A stretch of DNA of 41,342 bases from Escherichia coli (lineage in GTDB: Bacteria > Pseudomonadota > Gammaproteobacteria > Enterobacterales > Enterobacteriaceae). Shown in pieces: positions 6,811-28,265 of the stretch; positions within the stretch are counted from its first letter, which is position 1; every line of letters starts with the position of its first letter. The stretch lies in the NCBI GenBank assembly GCA_026712295.1, contig GCA_026712295.1_4694.1; one strand, written 5' to 3'. The notes below the pieces were generated by a model. It worked only from the letters and a program-made list of their open reading frames with translations. It did not search any database and was not told the DNA's origin. Made by a program: the position numbers and the translations under genes.

Positions 6811-7056
6811 TTAGGACTCAGCCTGTTCCTTACGGATTGCCTCCATGTCGTCCAGAGTTTGAGACGCATAGTTGAGACCCGCGAGGAACCCAGCGATGTA
6901 GCTTTCAGACCATCCAGCCTGTTTTAATCGGTTGATTAGTCCTGACTGAATAGCATATCCAGCATTGTACTGAACCTGTAGGTACTCCATAACACTCCGA
7001 GGAACATTAGGAATATCTTGTGGGTTCTCCATATACTTCTTGATAGGGGTTAACAT
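6811..7056 (-). CDS. gp6.5-like protein, 81 aa
   Basis: Track ORF 6811..7137 trimmed to ATG at 7054-7056 (MLTPIKK...) with AAGGAG RBS, just downstream of the phi6.5-like promoter. Confidence 0.55.
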   Translation of the reverse strand: MLTPIKKYMENPQDIPNVPRSVMEYLQVQYNAGYAIQSGLINRLKQAGWSESYIAGFLAGLNYASQTLDDMEAIRKEQAES

Positions 7057-7107
7057 AATTAATGTTCTCCTTAAAGTTAAACTTAAAGTAGGTATCATAT
7101 AGGCACC

Positions 7108-16872: not shown

Positions 16873-16895
16873 TCCTCCATAGGTGAGTCGTATTA
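16873..16895 (-). promoter_or_regulatory. T7-type promoter (phi1.6-like)
   Basis: Minus strand TAATACGACTCACCTATGGAGGA. Confidence 0.7.
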
Positions 16896-16973
16896 GCAAT
16901 CCGGCCAGCAGTTGTCGTCAATGATAACGAAGGCAAACGTGGCAAAGATAGCAGCAGCAATTAGAAATAGCAT
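16893..16973 (-). CDS. Small hydrophobic peptide (gp1.5 position), 26 aa
   Basis: GGAGGAA RBS then ATG; MLFLIAAAIFATFAFVIIDDNCWPDC. Confidence 0.4.
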   Translation of the reverse strand: MLFLIAAAIFATFAFVIIDDNCWPDC

Positions 16974-16980
16974 GAGGTAG

Positions 16981-17003
16981 TTCCTCCATAGTGAGTCGTA
17001 TAG
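16981..17003 (-). promoter_or_regulatory. T7-type promoter (phi1.5-like)
   Basis: Minus strand TCTATACGACTCACTATGGAGGA. Confidence 0.7.
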
Positions 17004-17046
17004 AAACGCAAAAAGGCCAGCCCCGTTAAGGACTGACCATTTGTCT

Positions 17047-17229
17047 TTACATATTGTTTCGTAGGTACTCTTTGACTTCCTTAATACTATGGCACTCATG
17101 GACAGTAAAGTAGTCCCAAGTTCTCCCGTAGCTTCTCCGGTCATCTCCTTCCATCCACTTTGATATGTGGAATATCATCAGGTGTGGGTGTTGATACACT
17201 CTCCAACCGTTCTCGTCAAAGATAAGCAT
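17047..17229 (-). CDS. gp1.4-like protein, 60 aa
   Basis: ATG overlaps ligase stop (TAATG) with AAGGAGAAA RBS; position as T7 gene 1.4. Confidence 0.5.
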   Translation of the reverse strand: MLIFDENGWRVYQHPHLMIFHISKWMEGDDRRSYGRTWDYFTVHECHSIKEVKEYLRNNM

Positions 17230-18260
17230 TACATTTTCTCCTTTGGGTTATCCTCAGTTCCACGGAACATAACGAACGATGGGTGACGCAGAGAGCCGTC
17301 TGGAGTTTCCTCCATGTAGGCAACCTGACAGGCGAAGCCAGTGTACGGCATACCCATACCCACAGACTCAGCATGTTTGACGGCAGCAGTGAACTCATCC
17401 ATCAACGCTTGGCTAATGTTGTTGGCAGAGACTACACGACCGGACTCCAAGAGAACCTCGAAGCCAATCACTTTACCTTCATTAGCCAGACCCGGAGTAC
17501 CCCAATTGAGTCCAACGATGACACCATCAGCTTCATTCTCAGGCTTCATCTTCCACCAGCCAGACTTCTTGCCACGCTTGTAGACTTCCAGCGGGTCTTT
17601 GACGACCAGACCTTCATGACCATCGGCACGGGCTTTCTCGTAGAGTTCCTGAAGTTCTACCATGTCGTAGACTTCTTTGGCCTCAGATAGTTCCCAAGTG
17701 ATTTCCGGGAAGTGTTCACTAAGAACCGGAATGAGGGAACGCACATGCTCTTGCATCAGGAGGGACATAACGCCGTACTCTTTGCCTTCTACCATATCGT
17801 GATACGGCATAGCAGCATACAGGACAACCTTAAGTTTCTTAGGGTCTAAGCAGAAGTCTACTTTACTCCCCTTGAGAGGCTCTACTCCACCAATATCAAA
17901 TCCACAGTTTGTCTTCTTGAGCCACTTGGTTCTCAGTAGTCCAGACCCTGTGTTGAAGTCTACGCCTTTGACCATCAGTTCACCATCCAGCATGAAGCCA
18001 TCAGGGAAAATCCAGCGGTCATCTTTGAGAACATTAGCCCAGCGTTGGTCGAACCCATTAAGGTGCTCAAGCGCGGGTATGGTCTTGGAGACGCGGGATA
18101 GCCACAGGCAGTCAGCCGTATTGTCAACCACGATGTTACCACGTACACCATCACGCTTAGTGTCAGCAATCAGGTAGCCAGCTTTGTCGAGTGCTTTCTT
18201 AATGGCAGACTCAACGTAGGATACAGCTTTAAAAGGGTTAGTCTTGAATGTGATTTCCAT
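17229..18260 (-). CDS. 1.3: ATP-dependent DNA ligase gp1.3, 343 aa
   Basis: Adenylation motif KRDGVRG, similarity to T7 ligase; AGGAG RBS. Confidence 0.92.
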   Translation of the reverse strand: MEITFKTNPFKAVSYVESAIKKALDKAGYLIADTKRDGVRGNIVVDNTADCLWLSRVSKTIPALEHLNGFDQRWANVLKDDRWIFPDGFMLDGELMVKGVDFNTGSGLLRTKWLKKTNCGFDIGGVEPLKGSKVDFCLDPKKLKVVLYAAMPYHDMVEGKEYGVMSLLMQEHVRSLIPVLSEHFPEITWELSEAKEVYDMVELQELYEKARADGHEGLVVKDPLEVYKRGKKSGWWKMKPENEADGVIVGLNWGTPGLANEGKVIGFEVLLESGRVVSANNISQALMDEFTAAVKHAESVGMGMPYTGFACQVAYMEETPDGSLRHPSFVMFRGTEDNPKEKM

Positions 18261-18297: not shown

Positions 18298-18339
18298 GTT
18301 AATCACAAAGGCCACCATTAAGATGACCTTTAGTTTAAC
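18298..18339 (-). promoter_or_regulatory. RNase III-type processing hairpin (R1.3-like)
   Basis: AGTTAATCACAAAGGCCACCATTAAGATGACCTTTAGTTTAAC family member. Confidence 0.55.
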
Positions 18340-18341
18340 TC

Positions 18342-18364
18342 TTTCGCAATAGTGAGTCGTATTA
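18342..18364 (-). promoter_or_regulatory. T7-type promoter (phi1.3-like)
   Basis: Minus strand TAATACGACTCACTATTGCGAAA. Confidence 0.7.
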
Positions 18365-18634
18365 CTTCCAGTGCTTCAGGTCACTGTGAACCTTACGGAG
18401 CCATTCAGTCTGTGCATTACAGCGAACGTCTTCGTCTGACTGTTCGAAACACTTAGCGGTCAGCATTAAGCCATTCCGCAAGGTCACTCGAAGTGTCTCT
18501 CCGGCTACCATCCGACGCTGTGCGAAGTCCTCATAGCGATAAGTCTCAACGACCACATTTGCATCGTGGTCTTCTTTAAGTCGTTCGATAGCGTCTTTAT
18601 ATGCTATTAAGTTACCACTGTATAAGCGACCCAT
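18362..18634 (-). CDS. 1.2: gp1.2 (host dGTPase inhibitor homologue), 90 aa
   Basis: N-terminus MGRLYSGNL and C-terminus LKHWK as in T7 gp1.2. Confidence 0.8.
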   Translation of the reverse strand: MGRLYSGNLIAYKDAIERLKEDHDANVVVETYRYEDFAQRRMVAGETLRVTLRNGLMLTAKCFEQSDEDVRCNAQTEWLRKVHSDLKHWK

Positions 18635-18783
18635 TAGAGTGCCTCCTTCCAGTTACGTTTCTCAGCGTTGCCACGTTGTGTCTTGTGGCGTTTCTTCATG
18701 CGGTCTTTACGTTCCTGCCATTCAGCACCGTGTTCATTGCTTACGTTGTTGCGCTTAGTGGTTGGTTCAAAGTTGGTACGCAT
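18634..18783 (-). CDS. 1.1: gp1.1-like basic protein, 49 aa
   Basis: MRTNFEPTTKRNN..., lysine/arginine-rich, TAATG overlap with gene 1.2; resembles T7 gp1.1. Confidence 0.6.
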   Translation of the reverse strand: MRTNFEPTTKRNNVSNEHGAEWQERKDRMKKRHKTQRGNAEKRNWKEAL

Positions 18784-18814
18784 AATGTTATTTCCTTCTG
18801 TGTAGTTAATGACA

Positions 18815-18858
18815 GTTAATCATGAAGGCCACCAAATGTGATGACCTTGAGTTTAACT
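18815..18858 (-). promoter_or_regulatory. RNase III-type processing hairpin (R1.1-like)
   Basis: AGTTAATCATGAAGGCCACCAAATGTGATGACCTTGAGTTTAAC family member. Confidence 0.55.
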
Positions 18859-18865
18859 TTCAGTG

Positions 18866-18888
18866 TCTCCCATTAGTGAGTCGTATTG
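18866..18888 (-). promoter_or_regulatory. T7-type promoter (phi1.1B-like)
   Basis: Minus strand CAATACGACTCACTAATGGGAGA. Confidence 0.8.
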
Positions 18889-19430
18889 TCTGCAACCTTA
18901 CGTGCAATCTCAATGCGACCCGCTACATCTTTCTTATAATAGGTGAACTCTTTGCGCTCACCATCAGTGCACGTCTGTGTCAGCAGATAGCGGTCGGCTT
19001 GTTCAACCCAATGTAGGCAAGTGACTTGCTTACCACATGAGCCAAGACCCAGCTTGAACTCAGTGCGCTTCCAGCCAGCATCCGGTATGTGAGCAGTAAA
19101 CTTGATAGACGTGATGTCACTGTGAGTGTACTCACGGATGGTACTCTTTGCCTCTTTAAGTTCCTTGCGGTACTCCACTGCCTCAGCGCGTAGACGCTCG
19201 ATGAGTTCTCGTTGGTTCGACATGTCATATTGTTGTTCGAACTCTAAGGTACGGATTCGACCAGCTAGTTCCTGCTTCTCTCGCCAACCATCTTCAAGTC
19301 TCTCTTTGAGTGCATGAGAGTTCTTCTCTTCTTTGATTAGCTTAGTGAGAAATACCTTTGAACGATTATAGTATGTTGCTGCAAGAATGGTTGATACGAG
19401 AGCGCCTACTGAAGTGATTAAAGTAAACAT
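18873..19430 (-). CDS. Hypothetical protein, 185 aa: N-terminal transmembrane helix, coiled-coil middle, Cys-containing C-terminal region
   Basis: ATG with AAGAGGAAACA RBS, immediately downstream of the phi1.1A-like promoter; MFTLITSVGALVSTILAATYY hydrophobic segment; no T7 counterpart recognised. Confidence 0.7.
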   Translation of the reverse strand: MFTLITSVGALVSTILAATYYNRSKVFLTKLIKEEKNSHALKERLEDGWREKQELAGRIRTLEFEQQYDMSNQRELIERLRAEAVEYRKELKEAKSTIREYTHSDITSIKFTAHIPDAGWKRTEFKLGLGSCGKQVTCLHWVEQADRYLLTQTCTDGERKEFTYYKKDVAGRIEIARKVADNTTH

Positions 19431-19489
19431 GATTGTGTTTCCTCTTAAAGTTAGAACTTAAAGTATCTTAAAGTTTAGGAAGCCCGAAG

Positions 19490-19512
19490 GCTCCCAATAG
19501 TGAGTCGTATTA
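19490..19512 (-). promoter_or_regulatory. T7-type promoter (phi1.1A-like)
   Basis: Minus strand TAATACGACTCACTATTGGGAGC. Confidence 0.8.
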
Positions 19513-19519
19513 GATTCCG

Positions 19520-22171
19520 TTAGGCAAACGCAAAGTCTGACTTAAGGATTTCTTGCAGGTCCAGAGAACCTTTAGCTGGCATCTCAGGCATCTTGTCAAG
19601 CTGTGATTCGTGCAACTGGTCAGCAAATTGCTCATAGAAGTCTGCAAGTACATCGTTCTCTTCGTAAGTGTTGACCATCGTTTCACGCACTGCTTTAAAC
19701 AGGTTGCCAGCATCAGCAGGGATAGTACCAAAGGAGTCGTGAATCAGTGCGAACGATTCCACACCGTAGACCTCATTGGAGCGGACCACAGTCATGCGCA
19801 GGTGGCTACCATCCATTGAGTGGACAAAGTTAGGTGCGATGCCTGACTCCTGCTTACGAGCATCAATTCCGCTATCCTTGTTGGTGTTCACGGTAGGCTG
19901 TAGACGAATCTGGCCTAAGAACATCAGGTTCAAGCGTGTCTGTACTGGCTTCTTGTATTCCTGCCAGACCGGGAAGCCATCAGGAGTAACCCAATGTACC
20001 GCACAGCGTTTGCGCAGAACCTCTTTTGTCTTCTTGTCCTTGACTTCAGCAGCCAGCAGTTTAGCAGCAGACTTCAGCCAGTTCATTGCTTCAACCGCAG
20101 CGACCACTGTCACCGTTACCGCGTTCCAAATCAGTTTAGCCATGTAGCCAGCCGCTTGGTTCGGTTGAGTGAACATCAAGCCCTTGCCATCGTCGATAGC
20201 TGGCTGAATTGTATCCTCTAGCACTTGGTCACGGAAGCCATACTCTTTGGAACCATACGCCAAGGTCATAACGGAACGCTTAGTCTCCTTACGAGTAACA
20301 CCGTATGCTAACCATTGACCAGCCAGTTCCTTCGTGCCCAGCTTGAGCTTCTCAGTGATTTCCCCTGTGTCCTTATTGGTCACGGTTTCGACTTCGTTGT
20401 CGGTGCCATTTATTACATCTTGCTTCAGAATCTCGTTGACACGTTCCGCTACGATGCGGTAGATGTCTTGTACCTCTTTGCTTGGCAGCAGGTTAACCGC
20501 ACGACCACCAATCTCATCACGGAGCATCGCGGAGAAGTGCTGAATACCGGAGCAGCTACCATCGAACGCCAGCGGAAGAGAGCAGTTGTAGTTCATCCCG
20601 TGGTGTTGCACACCTGCATACTCGAAGCAGAACGCGAGGAAGCAGAACGGAGAATCTTGCTCGGCCCACCAAGTGTTAGCAATCGGGTCAGCCGCAACGC
20701 TCATGATGTTCTCATGGTTGTCATCAATGAACTTGATGCGTTCTGCAAAGTCCACCTTGTCCACGCCAGCAGTGTTAGCACCGTGAATCTTCAGCCAGTA
20801 GTACCCATCGACACCGATTGGTTTACCTTTAGCCAACGTCAGCAAGCCTTTGGTCATGTCGTTGCCTTGCGGGTTAAACATCGGCACAGCATACACACGA
20901 CCGCGCCAGTCCATGTTCATTGGGAACCAGATAGCTTTGAACTGTGCGAACTTATTGGCCTGACCTAACATGAACTCCATGCTCATGCGGCGTGACACTC
21001 GTGCCTTCTCTTTGCGGTAGATTGCGGAGGCCGCTTTCTTCCACGCTTTCAGAGCCGCTTCGTTCGTGTCGATGTCATCAGGTTTGACCGGGAGTTCTCC
21101 ACGTTCCAGAGCGGGTACATCTTCAACCGGGCAATGCTTCCAGTTCACAATCTCGTTGACCACTGCCAGAACCTTCTTGTTAATCTTCCAAGGAGTATTC
21201 TGTGCGATGTTCACGGCCTTGTAAACTTCAGGCATGTACACATCGTTGTAACGCTCAAGTCCCTTCTTGCTACCAGTGCGAACCAGAGAGAGAGGCTTGC
21301 GACCAGCAGCCCAATAGCCACCACCGACCGGAGAAGTCCAAGGCTTAGGTGGGACCACGCAAGGCTGATACATTGGAGCGATTGCAGCCAGTGCACCAGC
21401 ACGTTTAGATAACAGGTCAACGTATTGTTCGGTCAGTTGGATGTACTCGCCATCCTTCTCGATGTTCCCAGCGAACGGGCGGTGTAACTCAACGAGACCA
21501 GTAGACCCAATGAGCAGTTCCAACATGCGCACACCAACGTGAATTGATTCTTCAGGTGTCCATGTGGTCCACTTGGTTTGCAGTTGACCAGCATCAAGCA
21601 TCTTGCCTTCTACAGCTTGCATGAATGCTTTCTTGTAGACGATACCAACGCGCTTGTTCAGTGCCTCCTGTACGTGGTTCTTAAAGTGCTTCGCTTCTTC
21701 GTCACGGATGCGACCAAAACGCAGTTCATCCTCAATACTGCGACCAATCTTAGTGGCGACCGATTGCAGGTTGGTGAACTCTTCTTTCGTCAAGCAAGCG
21801 AGTGTGACCTTCAGTGTGATAAATGCAGCAGCTTCAGGTGCAACCTTCTGTACCAGATTGTAGGCTACTGGACGCTTGCCACGCTTCGCTTCCACTTCAG
21901 TGAACCAATCGTTCCACGCCTCGATAAACTTCGGTGCGAGAGATGACAGGAGCGGTTTAGCCACTGCGTTATCACCGAACTCACCCGCTTTGATTTGACG
22001 TTCCATTGCCTTAAGAAAACGCTTCTCGCCTTCGGTGTGCGCTTCGTGCTCAAGCTGTAACTGCGTAGCTGCAAGCTGTGCGCCGTAATGGTCAGCCAGA
22101 ATGTTGTATGGCATGATTGCGTTAGCGATGTCAGAGAAGTCGTTCTTTGGTGCGTTGATTACGTTAGTCAT
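19520..22171 (-). CDS. 1: DNA-directed RNA polymerase gp1 (single-subunit), 883 aa
   Basis: Same length as T7 RNAP; long identical blocks (MFNPQGNDMTKGLLTLAKGKPIG, WWAEQDSPFCFLAFCFEYAGVQHHG, AFDGSCSGIQHFSAMLRDE, ALIHDSFGTIPADA, C-terminal FAFA). Confidence 0.97.
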   Translation of the reverse strand: MTNVINAPKNDFSDIANAIMPYNILADHYGAQLAATQLQLEHEAHTEGEKRFLKAMERQIKAGEFGDNAVAKPLLSSLAPKFIEAWNDWFTEVEAKRGKRPVAYNLVQKVAPEAAAFITLKVTLACLTKEEFTNLQSVATKIGRSIEDELRFGRIRDEEAKHFKNHVQEALNKRVGIVYKKAFMQAVEGKMLDAGQLQTKWTTWTPEESIHVGVRMLELLIGSTGLVELHRPFAGNIEKDGEYIQLTEQYVDLLSKRAGALAAIAPMYQPCVVPPKPWTSPVGGGYWAAGRKPLSLVRTGSKKGLERYNDVYMPEVYKAVNIAQNTPWKINKKVLAVVNEIVNWKHCPVEDVPALERGELPVKPDDIDTNEAALKAWKKAASAIYRKEKARVSRRMSMEFMLGQANKFAQFKAIWFPMNMDWRGRVYAVPMFNPQGNDMTKGLLTLAKGKPIGVDGYYWLKIHGANTAGVDKVDFAERIKFIDDNHENIMSVAADPIANTWWAEQDSPFCFLAFCFEYAGVQHHGMNYNCSLPLAFDGSCSGIQHFSAMLRDEIGGRAVNLLPSKEVQDIYRIVAERVNEILKQDVINGTDNEVETVTNKDTGEITEKLKLGTKELAGQWLAYGVTRKETKRSVMTLAYGSKEYGFRDQVLEDTIQPAIDDGKGLMFTQPNQAAGYMAKLIWNAVTVTVVAAVEAMNWLKSAAKLLAAEVKDKKTKEVLRKRCAVHWVTPDGFPVWQEYKKPVQTRLNLMFLGQIRLQPTVNTNKDSGIDARKQESGIAPNFVHSMDGSHLRMTVVRSNEVYGVESFALIHDSFGTIPADAGNLFKAVRETMVNTYEENDVLADFYEQFADQLHESQLDKMPEMPAKGSLDLQEILKSDFAFA

Positions 22172-25952: not shown

Positions 25953-26108
25953 AGAGCGTCCTCCTTGTTATACTTGATGGTTACACTGATAGTAGGGATG
26001 TAATTACTATTACCATCATCCCTCACTGTAAGGTCTCTAAGAGTTAGTCACTAAGTATGCACTTTGCATATGCAGTCTTTAAGTGTCTTTAAGTTGTCTT
26101 AGGGTGCC

Positions 26109-26131
26109 CTTCCCAATAGTGAGTCGTATTA
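26109..26131 (-). promoter_or_regulatory. T7-type promoter (phiOR-like), duplicated copy
   Basis: Minus strand TAATACGACTCACTATTGGGAAG. Confidence 0.7.
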
Positions 26132-26397
26132 ATTTCTTCATGTATATCAGTAAGTTACTTAACGGTAACGTAGCGGTACTAAGTGCTTACCTATGCACCT
26201 TTCCCGCATACTTATCTATTACCACTCAATGAAGCAGCTAGAGTCTCCATCATCCTCATAGTAGATGTCCACGCCACCAACATCGTAGCTATGGATAGCA
26301 TCACCACCAATGGTCTGTTTCTCCATGTGGTGTTCAAGGAACTCAAGGGTCATCTCTTCTTCAATCTTTAAGTGTCTTTAAGTTGTCTTAGGGTGCC

Positions 26398-26420
26398 CTT
26401 CCCAATAGTGAGTCGTATTA
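26398..26420 (-). promoter_or_regulatory. T7-type promoter (phiOR-like, right-end promoter downstream of gene 19)
   Basis: Minus strand TAATACGACTCACTATTGGGAAG. Confidence 0.75.
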
Positions 26421-26507
26421 ATTTCTTCATGTATATCAGTAAGTTACTTAACGGTAACGTAGCGGTACTAAGTGCTTACCTATGCACCTTTCCCGCATAC
26501 TTATCTA

Positions 26508-28265
26508 TTACCACTCAATGAAGCAGCTAGAGTCTCCATCATCCTCATAGTAGATGTCCACGCCACCAACATCGTAGCTATGGATAGCATCACCACCAAT
26601 GGTCTGTTTCTCCATGTGGTGTTCAAGGAACTCAAGGGTCATCTCTTCTTCACCTACACGGCTGTCCACAAGCATCCCTTCACGAAGGAACTCGATACCC
26701 AATGCGATAGCATCAATGCGGTCATCGTGTGCCACAGCGCCTCGCTCACGGGTCATACGGGTCATCTGATAGAACGCACTGTAGCGGACATCATGTTTCC
26801 CATCAAGGTCACGAGCAGTCTGGTAGTCCTCACGGATAACCTCATCACGAATGACCAGCTTGTGGGCACCCATCAACGGTTCGATAGTATCGCAGATTCG
26901 CATCTCCTTCATGCCCTTAGCACGGATTTCCTCTAAGGCACACTTATGGTGCTTCAGGAGAATCGGAGAGAAAATCTTACCGAACATACCGTCACCGAAG
27001 TTGGACTCGTGGACTACTGTCTGTACCTTCCACTGCTTGGCCTTCTTAGCGAGCTTCTCTAGGGTAGCATCATCGTAACCACCACGGAACCCACCGACTT
27101 CCATCAAGTAGATATAACCATTAAGTGAGTAGAGGACTGCGTACCCGGTCTCATCCTTACCACGACCACTTGGGTCAATGACCAGAATCTTAGACTGATA
27201 CTCAGCGGTACGAGAAGAGCACGTATGGAACGCATGGATGTCGTCACCCTTCAGACCAACGTTAGGGAGTTCCTCATTGCGGTTCTGACGGTTCGGCAAC
27301 CACTGGTAAGACAATGGGGCACGTTCAGGGTCCACAGCGCACACGATAGCATCACGGAGTCGTAGCGGGTACTTCTCGGCATCACTAAGGTTCGGGTTAA
27401 GCATGAACTGAAGTGTGTAGCCAGCTTTACCATATTCGAGTTCACGTTCACGGAGGTCATCCATATCGAATCGAACAGGGTCAGTAGGTTGACCGCGAAG
27501 TAACTCATAGCCTTCATCATACTCTTGCTTGAGCATAGGAGCCAGTCGGTCGCCATAATAGAGAGCCTCAGCGTCATTACGTGGATACTGTGCTGGCCAG
27601 ATTACTGTGCTGTACCCTTTGTTATCCTCAAGTTCCTTGTAGAGCGTCATCTCAGTTTGAGGTGTGCCAAGGTAGATAACACGAGAGGTAGGCAGCGGCT
27701 TAAGTAATGCAGCGAACTCAGTTACCAACGTCCAGAGCTTCTCACGAGCAGAACTCGTAGAGCTATTACCGGGAACCTCAACGTCATCTGCGATAATGAT
27801 GTCAGCACGGCTACCAGTTAACTGACCAGTGATACCTACAGACTTCACAGAGGGTGAGTGGTCGGGTTTAGCCAAGCCAACATCGAAGCTAATCACGGAG
27901 TCACGCTGTCCCGGTCGAGGTTTCAACTCAGAGAGGAACGGAAGGAGGTCGATGATGTTCTTGATGAAGATGGAGTTAGCATCAGCACGTTCCTTAGAGG
28001 CAGACACGATGAGAACCTTAAGTTGAGGGTCTCGCCATAAGACCCACACGACGAACGCACAGGTGATAAAGGACTTGCCGATACCACGGAACGCCTGAAG
28101 GATAAACTTCTTGTGGTCGCCGTTAGCGAGTGTACGTGCCATATCAATCTGACACTTGGTTGGTTTAGGTAAGTTCAGAGCCTTCCATAAGACGAACAGG
28201 AAGGCCACGAAGTCACCCTTAAGTTGCGCCACGATGAGCGCATTCTTGTTTGCTTGAGTAGACAT
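26508..28265 (-). CDS. 19: Terminase large subunit (DNA maturase B) gp19, 585 aa
   Basis: Walker A-like GIGKS, strong similarity to T7 gp19 (one residue shorter than T7); GGAGG RBS. Confidence 0.95.

What the first reader, a model, noticed from the sequence alone, without database searches (positions are those of the whole stretch)
18873..19430. 185-aa membrane-anchored ORF between the phi1.1A and phi1.1B promoters
In T7 the interval between gene 1 and gene 1.1 holds the tandem phi1.1A/phi1.1B promoters and the primary replication origin, not a sizeable gene. Here a well-formed gene (RBS AAGAGGAAACA, ATG, 185 codons) fills that interval. It has an N-terminal transmembrane helix, a charged coiled-coil-like middle (EKQELAGRIRTLEFEQQYDMSNQRELIERLRAEAVEYRKELKEAK) and a Cys-containing C-terminal domain. 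An early-expressed membrane protein at this site is a plausible candidate for host takeover, superinfection exclusion or anti-defence, and I recognise no homologue.
Basis: partly seen in the sequence, partly recalled or inferred. Interest (0 to 1): 0.65.

Follow-up and report, generated by a model that had tools for sequence, protein, structure and literature searches.

The report
Known phage gene 1.05, long form
The ORF is real, but it is the already catalogued "gene 1.05" of T3/BA14-type phages: a dispensable early gene of unknown function whose conserved small beta-domain is here hung on a coiled-coil stalk anchored in the inner membrane.

Summary
The 185-codon ORF exists at 18873-19430, on the minus strand. 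It has a strong RBS, a T7-type promoter upstream (19490-19512) and a second one overlapping its last codons (18866-18888). It is under purifying selection (dN/dS 0.06-0.08).

This is gene 1.05 of the T3/BA14/285P/Kvp1 group: Pfam PF25755 at E 2e-29, 99.5% identical to phage CarlSpitteler, and found in 562 phage records.

The family's core is a ~75-aa six-stranded beta-domain with an invariant G-x-G-x-C-G hairpin. It has no significant relative among solved structures. The domain occurs alone (T3), behind a coiled coil (EcoDS1), or behind a TM helix plus coiled coil (here). The N-terminal half is mosaic (12-27% identity) while the domain stays 71-93% identical.

Charge distribution and the soluble short forms place the domain in the cytoplasm. 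Phage Berlin, in the same genus, lacks the gene precisely, so it is dispensable. No functional study was found.

My best inference, at low confidence, is a membrane-tethered binding module aimed at a conserved cytoplasmic host ligand (host takeover or anti-defence). Overall this is an ordinary, known accessory gene with an open function.

The parts
19490..19512 (-). Phage-RNAP promoter phi1.05 (TAATACGACTCACTATTGGGAGC). The transcript should start near 19495 and open with a GAGCC-UUCG-GGCUU hairpin.
   Evidence: 2 mismatches to the T7 consensus; 0 sites expected by chance. Annotated as phi1.05 at the homologous place in BA14 and Kvp1. Sequence.
19431..19477 (-). AT-rich leader with three ACTTTAAG copies (19444, 19457, 19467) and the RBS AAGAGGA (19440-19446). 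It resembles T7's phi1.1B/origin leader.
   Evidence: 76% AT, second most AT-rich 50-mer of the window; 3 of the 9 ACTTTAAG copies. for the sequences. The same leader drives gene 1.1 directly in phage Berlin.
18873..19430 (-). Gene 1.05, long form (185 aa plus stop).
   Evidence: Pfam PF25755 E 2.1e-29. PHROG 8103 E 8.5e-62. 99.5% aa identity to phage CarlSpitteler and 97.3% to 285P gp1.05. dN/dS 0.06-0.08.
19368..19427 (-). Codons 2-21: N-terminal hydrophobic helix (membrane anchor). There is no Lys/Arg before it and 4 in the 15 residues after it.
19125..19364 (-). Codons 23-102: charged helical stalk (coiled-coil-like). It is mosaic and hypervariable among relatives.
   Evidence: continuous helix, pLDDT about 90-95. 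(heptad register). (12-27% identity while the C-domain stays 71-93%).
18900..19121 (-). Codons 104-177: conserved 1.05 beta-domain, a six-strand meander. Invariant residues are G128, C132, G133, Q152, F162, Y164, G171, R172.
   Evidence: pLDDT 90.3, pTM 0.76.
18866..18888 (-). Phage-RNAP promoter phi1.1. It overlaps the last four codons and the stop codon of 1.05.
   Evidence: Annotated as phi1.1 in BA14 and Kvp1. Sequence.
18810..18862 (-). Irregular hairpin in the phi1.1 leader. It is homologous to the T7 phi1.1A leader, which from prior knowledge holds the R1.1 RNase III site.
   Evidence: alignment with T7 and T3. (MFE -18.1 kcal/mol, z -1.77, so the fold alone is weak evidence). No Rfam family matched.
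18634..18783 (-). Gene 1.1 (49 aa), the downstream neighbour. In phage Berlin it is fused directly to the 1.05 leader.
   Evidence: phrog_2490.

Best explanation
This is the long form of gene 1.05, a known accessory gene of T3/BA14-type T7-like phages. Its position implies two routes of transcription: by host RNAP read-through as part of the early unit that ends at a terminator-like site past the ligase gene, and by the phage RNAP from phi1.05.

The protein has three parts. (i) An extreme N-terminal hydrophobic helix inserts into the inner membrane N-out/C-in. (ii) An ~80-residue helical stalk probably oligomerises as a coiled coil. (iii) A conserved ~75-aa all-beta domain faces the cytoplasm.

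Inferred mechanism: the beta-domain is a binding module for a conserved cytoplasmic ligand, either a host protein or a nucleic acid or nucleotide. The stalk and anchor multimerise it and hold it at the membrane. The ligand would then be captured or sequestered early in infection, giving a non-essential host-takeover or anti-defence function.

Shown here: the identity, the anatomy, the selection pattern and the dispensability. Inferred: the topology (strongly) and the binding or sequestration role (weakly). My confidence is about 0.97 for the identity, about 0.8 for the cytoplasmic topology and about 0.35 for the host-directed binding mechanism.
For: Identity: PF25755 at 101.7 bits against a cut-off of 27. 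It is annotated as gene 1.05 at the same locus in 285P, BA14 and Kvp1.

Real gene: dN/dS is 0.06-0.08 in both halves. The RBS and promoters are present.

Architecture: AF2 gives pLDDT 87.8 for the full length and 90.3 for the domain.

Topology: 82 of the 84 TM-bearing family members have no Lys/Arg before the helix and 1-6 in the 15 residues after it. In addition, 74 of 176 members are short soluble proteins with no hydrophobic segment, so the domain works in the cytoplasm.

Module logic: the domain occurs alone (74), with a TM (13), with TM plus coiled coil (71) or with a coiled coil only (18) (T3 and EcoDS1 examples). The N-half is 12-27% identical where the domain is 71-93% identical. So the architecture of the tether is selected, not its sequence.

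The ligand is conserved and not T7-specific. The domain is found in T7-like phages of Enterobacterales, Pseudomonas, Ralstonia, Aeromonas and Delftia, and in a T7-type replication-gene cluster inside a Sphingomonas genome contig. It also occurs in a T5-like and a Mu-like phage contig, usually among small early ORFs.

Dispensable accessory: Berlin, in the same genus, lacks it precisely. About 562 of about 1,282 records with a close T7-type RNAP have it. Decayed copies exist: the split gene in fPS-50 and the internally deleted P0029.

Against: A strongly conserved domain is not the usual signature of an arms-race interface. An invariant Cys with invariant Gln and Arg could equally indicate catalysis. 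The topology rests on hydropathy and charge rules, not on a trained predictor or an experiment. The oligomeric state was not modelled.
Confidence: 0.45

Rival explanations
1. Superinfection exclusion. The membrane-anchored early protein sits at the cytoplasmic face of the inner membrane and blocks genome entry of a second T7-like phage, for example by binding the ejectosome or the entering DNA-RNAP complex.
For: It has a membrane anchor. Its position predicts early expression. It is non-essential with presence/absence polymorphism within a genus, as is typical of exclusion genes. The domain is conserved mostly among T7-like phages.
Against: 42% of family representatives (74 of 176) are soluble short forms without any anchor, including the T3 prototype. 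The domain also occurs in T5-like and Mu-like phages, which have different entry machinery. There is no homology to known exclusion proteins.
Confidence: 0.15
2. A role in the phage's own DNA metabolism. The small beta-barrel would bind RNA or ssDNA (Sm/WYL-like), or a replication or transcription protein. The long form would tether the origin region or replisome to the membrane.
Against: It is dispensable: T7 and Berlin replicate without it. dS is the same in both halves of the gene, so there is no extra DNA-level constraint. The structural similarity is below significance, and profile comparison with Hfq and SspB finds nothing. Most small ORFs in T7-like class II regions lie among replication genes anyway.
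Confidence: 0.15
3. The beta-domain is a small enzyme, not a passive binder. The invariant Cys132 in the glycine-rich hairpin would act as the nucleophile and modify a host target.
For: C132, Q152 and R172 are invariant, and D156 and K160 nearly so, across 40 sequences that are 31-91% identical to the window's domain (most below 50%) and across 71 sequences. The conserved G-x-G-x-C-G loop is reminiscent of substrate-binding loops.
Against: At 75 residues, with no cofactor-binding fold and no structural or sequence relative among enzymes, an enzyme is hard to place. The G-x4-G-K pattern is not a Walker A motif: the fold is all-beta and the Ser/Thr position is not conserved.
Confidence: 0.1
4. 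The N-terminal helix is a signal anchor or signal peptide that exports the coiled coil and beta-domain to the periplasm, where the protein would act on the envelope (spanin-like or receptor-masking).
For: An N-terminal TM followed by a coiled coil superficially resembles i-spanins (prior knowledge). The protein contains Cys residues that could form disulfides.
Against: There is no positively charged n-region in 82 of 84 TM forms, and basic residues follow the helix. There is no lipobox or clear A-x-A cleavage site (read directly from the sequence). The soluble short forms lack any export signal. The gene is in the early region, not the lysis cassette.
Confidence: 0.06
5. A spurious or decaying ORF with no function, filling space between two promoters.
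For: It is absent from T7 and Berlin. Split or internally deleted copies exist in some phages.
Against: dN/dS is 0.06-0.08. The family has 181 representatives at 50% identity with invariant residues. The fold prediction is confident. The translation signals are strong.
Confidence: 0.02

Closest known systems
gp1.05 of phages 285P, BA14, Kvp1 and CarlSpitteler (Berlinvirus)
   Same: Same locus (gene 1 - phi1.05 - 1.05 - phi1.1 - 1.1), same length of 185 aa and same TM + coiled coil + domain architecture. Amino-acid identity is 99.5% to CarlSpitteler and 97.3% to 285P. Over the 1.3-kb locus, nucleotide identity is 96.6% to 285P, 93.5% to BA14 and 91.6% to Kvp1 (annotation).
   Different: Essentially nothing. 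These records call it 'gp1.05', 'fusion protein with gene 1.05' or 'hypothetical protein', and give no function.
T3 gene 1.05 protein (the prototype of Pfam PF25755; 90 aa)
   Same: Same locus and flanking promoters. The C-terminal beta-domain is homologous, at 47% identity over residues 106-174.
   Different: T3 has only the domain, with no TM helix and no coiled coil. Its first ~15 codons are built from leader-like CTTTAAG repeats.
K11 / KP32 'gp1.05 fusion protein' (Przondovirus) and EcoDS1 gp1.05 (Kayfunavirus)
   Same: Same domain and locus. K11 also has a TM and a coiled coil.
   Different: The N-terminal halves cannot be aligned with this one. EcoDS1 has a coiled coil without a TM, plus a C-terminal tail.
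Sm/Hfq, WYL and SspB small beta-barrels
   Different: No significant Foldseek hit (best E 0.27). No profile similarity to Hfq or SspB. It has six strands rather than five, and the signature G-x-G-P-C-G-K hairpin is unique to this family.
T7 phi1.1A / phi1.1B / primary-origin interval
   Same: Two phage promoters just downstream of gene 1. A hairpin leader homologous to T7's phi1.1A leader and an AT-rich ACTTTAAG leader like T7's phi1.1B leader are both present.
   Different: The order of the two leaders is swapped, and a 558-bp gene sits between the promoters. Origin activity here is untested.

Membership tests
Phage T3 gene 1.05 family (Pfam PF25755) | Match to the family HMM above the curated gathering score | tested here: met
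   101.7 bits against a cut-off of 27, E 2.1e-29, residues 106-176 on profile positions 2-72 of 73. All 130 proteins returned by the two homologue searches carry PF25755 except the internally deleted P0029.
Phage T3 gene 1.05 family (Pfam PF25755) | Family-invariant residues (G-x-G-x-C-G hairpin, Gln, F-x-Y, G-R) | tested here: met
   G128, C132, G133, Q152, F162, Y164, G171 and R172 are all present.
Phage T3 gene 1.05 family (Pfam PF25755) | Locus in Studiervirinae: between gene 1 and gene 1.1, flanked by phi1.05 and phi1.1 | tested here: met
   The same layout is annotated in BA14, Kvp1, K11 and T3.
T7-type primary origin interval | Tandem phage promoters followed by an AT-rich region, with no gene between them | tested here: not met
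   The promoters and an AT-rich leader are present, but a 558-bp gene separates the promoters. T7 has 75 bp there. Origin activity cannot be tested with these tools.
Sm/Hfq-like small beta-barrels | Significant structural or profile similarity to Sm-fold proteins | tested here: inconclusive
P-loop NTPases (Walker A) | G-x4-G-K-[ST] in a strand-loop-helix of an alpha/beta fold | tested here: not met
   G128-LGSC-G133-K134 fits G-x4-G-K. But the next residue is Q here and varies across the family, K134 itself is not invariant, and the domain is all-beta.
Zinc-binding Cys/His domains | Three or four conserved Cys/His ligands | tested here: not met
   Only C132 is invariant. C138 is Ala or Ser in many relatives, C154 is often His or Thr, and H140 is not conserved.
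i-spanins (Rz-like) | N-in/C-out TM with a basic N-flank, a periplasmic coiled coil, and a gene in the lysis cassette with an o-spanin partner | tested here: not met
   No Lys/Arg before the TM in 82 of 84 forms. The gene is in the early region next to the RNAP gene. No spanin family was hit.
Superinfection-exclusion membrane proteins | Membrane location, early expression, and a block to entry of related phages | not testable with these tools
   The membrane anchor and early position are met. The exclusion phenotype needs experiments. There is no homology to known examples.
Known anti-defence or defence protein families | Match to a PADLOC, Pfam or NCBIfam model of such a family | tested here: not met
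   PADLOC gave 0 hits. NCBIfam gave only noise. Pfam gave only PF25755 above its cut-off.

The most novel reading that the evidence does not exclude
The 1.05 beta-domain is an uncharacterised, structurally orphan effector module. It is spread through the early regions of T7-like, T5-like and Mu-like phages and neutralises a conserved bacterial factor, possibly an immune component. Phages have repeatedly upgraded it by fusing it to interchangeable oligomerising and membrane-anchoring N-terminal modules, so that the target is sequestered at the membrane.
Probability: 0.3. Interest if true: 0.6.

Novelty: already known. Interest (0 to 1): 0.3.

Why it matters
As a genome feature it is ordinary: an annotated accessory gene with its own Pfam family. 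Its value is as a lead. Roughly four in ten T7-like phage records carry this domain. It is under strong purifying selection and has no solved structural relative. It comes in soluble, oligomeric and membrane-tethered versions, yet nothing is known about what it does. Natural presence/absence pairs, such as this phage against Berlin, make its function easy to test. A host target or a defence system that it disables would add a new effector family to the T7/T3 model system.

Tried and rejected
- Zinc finger: rejected, because only one Cys is conserved.
- Walker A / P-loop reading of GLGSCGK: rejected, because the fold is all-beta and the motif is not conserved.
- Spanin-like or exported protein: rejected on flank charges, the soluble short forms and the gene's location.
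- Homology to Hfq or SspB: profile comparison found nothing.
- Solved-structure relatives by sequence profile: none, best E 0.48.
- Foldseek against PDB: nothing below E 0.27.
- Foldseek against AFDB50: the library was unavailable.
- PADLOC and NCBIfam: nothing.
- Plasmid homologues: none.
- Rfam over 18300-19700: nothing.
- Extra DNA-level constraint, such as an origin inside the ORF: dS is equal in both halves, so no sign of it.
- Literature: 'gp1.05', 'gene 1.05' and PF25755 searches gave only genome-annotation tables. One search call failed on a term that was too short.
- The phiYeO3-12 genome paper is not held.
- A conserved neighbouring partner gene across distant contexts: none seen.

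Full report
OBSERVATION

The window is a T7-like phage genome read in reverse, and the ORF at 18873..19430 is on the minus strand. It has an ATG start and 185 codons.

The ORF lies between gene 1 (RNAP, 19520..22171) and gene 1.1 (18634..18783). Gene 1.2 (dGTPase inhibitor, 18362..18634) and the ligase (17229..18260) follow.

A consensus scan finds eight T7-type promoters in the window against none expected by chance. One is at 19490-19512 and one at 18866-18888, both on the minus strand. The second overlaps the end of the ORF: the C-terminal N-T-T-H-stop is encoded by the promoter core AATACGACTCACTAA.

The N-terminus (residues 1-19) has a mean hydropathy of 1.79 and carries no charge in residues 1-22.

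IDENTITY

The protein hits Pfam PF25755 'Phage_T3_1_05' over residues 106-176, with E 2e-29 and 101.7 bits against a cut-off of 27. It also hits PHROGs 8103, 6440 and 6379, all of unknown function.

The 1.3-kb locus is 91-97% identical to phages 285P, PZJ0206, CarlSpitteler, BA14 and Kvp1. Three of these records label the gene:
- 285P calls it '1.05'.
- BA14 notes 'fusion protein with gene 1.05'.
- Kvp1 notes 'similar to C-terminus of T3 gene 1.05'.
BA14 and Kvp1 annotate the flanking promoters as phi1.05 and phi1.1.

By tblastn the protein is 99.5% identical to a CarlSpitteler ORF, and the domain is present in 562 phage records. For comparison, about 1,282 records carry a close T7-type RNAP.

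THE FAMILY

An exhaustive profile search of 1.84 billion cluster representatives finds only 181 members. Every homologue with precomputed domains carries PF25755 and nothing else.

On 176 sequences I classified four architectures:
- 74 are the domain alone (75-100 aa, like T3's 90-aa protein).
- 13 are TM + domain.
- 71 are TM + coiled coil + domain (this protein; K11).
- 18 are a coiled coil without a TM (EcoDS1).

A diverse domain alignment has these invariant residues, in window-protein numbering: G128, C132, G133, Q152, F162, Y164, G171 and R172. F125, G130, V136, D156 and K160 are nearly invariant. The signature is F-K-L-G-x-G-P/S-C-G-K.

The G-x4-G-K pattern is not a Walker A motif, because the fold is all-beta and the following residue varies.

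STRUCTURE

AlphaFold2 predicts one continuous helix over residues 2-102 and a six-stranded antiparallel meander over 106-177 (pLDDT 87.8). The domain modelled alone with 71 diverse sequences gives pLDDT 90.3 and pTM 0.76.

- Foldseek against the PDB finds nothing below E 0.27.
- A sequence profile against PDB chains finds nothing.
- hhalign against Hfq and SspB finds nothing.
- BFVD returns only uncharacterised family members from T7-like phages of Pectobacterium, Salmonella, Klebsiella, Pseudomonas, Ralstonia, Aeromonas, Delftia, Dickeya and Providencia.

The fold is therefore at best loosely Sm/SH3-like and has no informative relative.

TOPOLOGY (INFERRED)

In 82 of the 84 TM-bearing members there is no Lys/Arg before the helix, which starts at residue 1-13. 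There are 1-6 Lys/Arg in the 15 residues after it. By the positive-inside rule this gives N-out/C-in.

The many short forms have no export signal at all, so the domain must work in the cytoplasm. I see no lipobox or A-x-A cleavage site.

The stalk shows one heptad register with 65% hydrophobic a/d positions against 34% overall. That is compatible with a coiled coil, but its oligomeric state was not modelled.

SELECTION, MOSAICISM AND DISPENSABILITY

Against BA14 and Kvp1, dN/dS is 0.06-0.08 overall (N-half 0.09-0.14, C-half 0-0.05). dS is similar in both halves, so the C-terminal conservation acts at the protein level and there is no hidden DNA element in the ORF.

Across the family the N-half drops to 12-27% identity while the domain stays at 71-93%. 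The tether has been swapped or has diverged freely, but its architecture is kept.

Phage Berlin, in the same genus, lacks the gene. The same promoter, AT-rich leader and RBS AAGAGGAAACA are joined directly to the ATG of gene 1.1. So the 1.05 ORF, phi1.1 and its leader form a ~650-bp cassette that can be present or absent. T7 also lacks it. The Kvp1 paper lists 1.05 among the regions that differ from Berlin (PMC2579914). Decayed copies exist: the split gene in fPS-50 and the internally deleted P0029.

RELATION TO THE T7 ORIGIN REGION

T7 has phi1.1A (5848) and phi1.1B (5923) 75 bp apart, then an AT-rich leader, then gene 1.1.

Here the leader after phi1.1 (18790-18871) is homologous to T7's phi1.1A leader. 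From prior knowledge, that T7 leader holds the R1.1 RNase III site. The window's leader folds into an irregular hairpin, though the z-score of -1.8 makes the fold alone weak evidence.

The leader after phi1.05 is 76% AT, the second most AT-rich 50-mer in the window. It holds three of the nine ACTTTAAG copies and resembles T7's phi1.1B/origin leader.

So the origin-like elements are retained, in swapped order, around the gene. Origin function itself is untested. The TAACTTTAAGAGG motif also matches the T7 gene-10-type translational enhancer plus Shine-Dalgarno context (prior knowledge), which fits strong translation.

CONTEXT OF DISTANT MEMBERS

- In the two Pseudomonas T7-like contexts looked up (phage Kallioja and a temperate prophage with an integrase), the domain gene sits directly upstream of the RNAP gene.
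- In a T7-type replication-gene cluster inside a Sphingomonas genome contig, it lies between the DNA polymerase and exonuclease genes.
- In another T7-like contig it overlaps the start of the endonuclease I gene.
- It also occurs among small early ORFs of a T5-like 116-kb contig.
- It also occurs in a Mu-like phage.
- No plasmid carries it.

There is no constant neighbour. This distribution argues for a ligand that is universal in Proteobacteria, or generic such as nucleic acid or nucleotide, and against a T7-specific partner.

MECHANISM

Shown: a real, selected, dispensable early-region gene that encodes an anchor, a stalk and a conserved domain.

Inferred with good support: the domain faces the cytoplasm.

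Inferred weakly: the domain binds a conserved cytoplasmic ligand, and the interchangeable N-terminal modules multimerise it and hold it at the membrane. That would give capture or sequestration as a host-takeover or anti-defence function (about 0.35).

Rivals:
- Superinfection exclusion (0.15). It is weakened by the soluble short forms and by the T5-like and Mu-like members.
- A nucleic-acid-binding or replisome-tethering role at the origin (0.15). It is weakened by dispensability and by the insignificant fold matches.
- A Cys-dependent enzyme (0.1).
- A periplasmic protein (0.06).
- A non-functional ORF (0.02).

No paper in the searchable library reports a function.

VERDICT

The feature is genuine, but it is an already catalogued accessory gene (gene 1.05, PF25755).

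Interest is modest at 0.3. It is not a surprise to a T7 specialist, but it is a tractable orphan family with natural knock-out and knock-in pairs.

Noticed in passing
window 26073-26650: A perfect 289-nt tandem direct repeat (26073-26361 and 26362-26650). Each copy carries a phage promoter (26109-26131 and 26398-26420, minus strand). This looks like the two terminal repeats of the linear genome joined head to tail, so the window would be a circularly permuted, reverse-complemented whole genome with its physical ends at 26361/26362.
   Followed up: partly
window 19431-19477 (-): The 1.05 leader has three ACTTTAAG copies and 76% AT, the second most AT-rich 50-mer of the window. It resembles the AT-rich leader after T7 phi1.1B and is a candidate for the AT-rich part of the primary origin. 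Phage Berlin has an expanded version with more repeats.
   Followed up: partly
window 7052-7101: The most AT-rich 50-mer of the window (78% AT). It has two further ACTTTAAG copies on the minus strand, at 7070 and 7082. It could be another leader or a secondary origin-like element.
   Followed up: no
window 18866-18888 / 18873-18887: The conserved C-terminal 'NTTH' of the Berlinvirus-type proteins is simply the translation of the phi1.1 promoter core. Its conservation therefore reflects the promoter, not the protein. Relatives with other promoter specificities end differently (T3: ...RTYS; K11: ...RHGKL).
   Followed up: partly
L003 653-720 (T3 gene 1.05 start) vs window 19431-19480: The first ~15 codons of T3's short 1.05 (MINIKTFFKNIFKLN) are encoded by leader-like CTTTAAG/ATTAAG repeats. 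This suggests that the short form arose by deletion of a TM/coiled-coil module, with a new start inside the leader.
   Followed up: partly
window 17047-17229 (-) and 17015-17038 (-): A 60-aa ORF (phrog_6957, unknown function) abuts the ligase stop. It is followed by a terminator-like hairpin and T-run, which is probably the early terminator TE. BA14 and Kvp1 have TE directly after the ligase gene, without this ORF.
   Followed up: partly
window 16893-17144 (-): Only the last 26 residues of this 83-aa ORF match a PHROG (phrog_10145, a 26-aa family). The real gene is probably a tiny gene-1.5-like peptide, as annotated in BA14 and Kvp1, and not the long ORF.
   Followed up: partly
L005 703-1242 (Yersinia phage fPS-50); protein P0029: Decayed versions of gene 1.05. 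In fPS-50 it is split into two small ORFs (g003 and g004). A 110-aa metagenomic variant keeps the TM and coiled coil but has lost nearly the whole beta-domain through an internal deletion.
   Followed up: partly
L011 7001-7243; L013 6001-6255: PF25755 domain genes outside T7-like phages. One is in a T5-like 116-kb contig among small early ORFs. The other is in a Mu-like phage, between a Mu gp27-like gene and a 569-aa gene upstream of the portal gene.
   Followed up: partly
L015 34-490 (EcoDS1): In EcoDS1 two further small genes sit between gene 1 and gene 1.05: an unnamed 76-aa ORF and an extra 'gp1.1'. The RNAP-to-1.1 interval is therefore a variable accessory locus in Studiervirinae.
   Followed up: no
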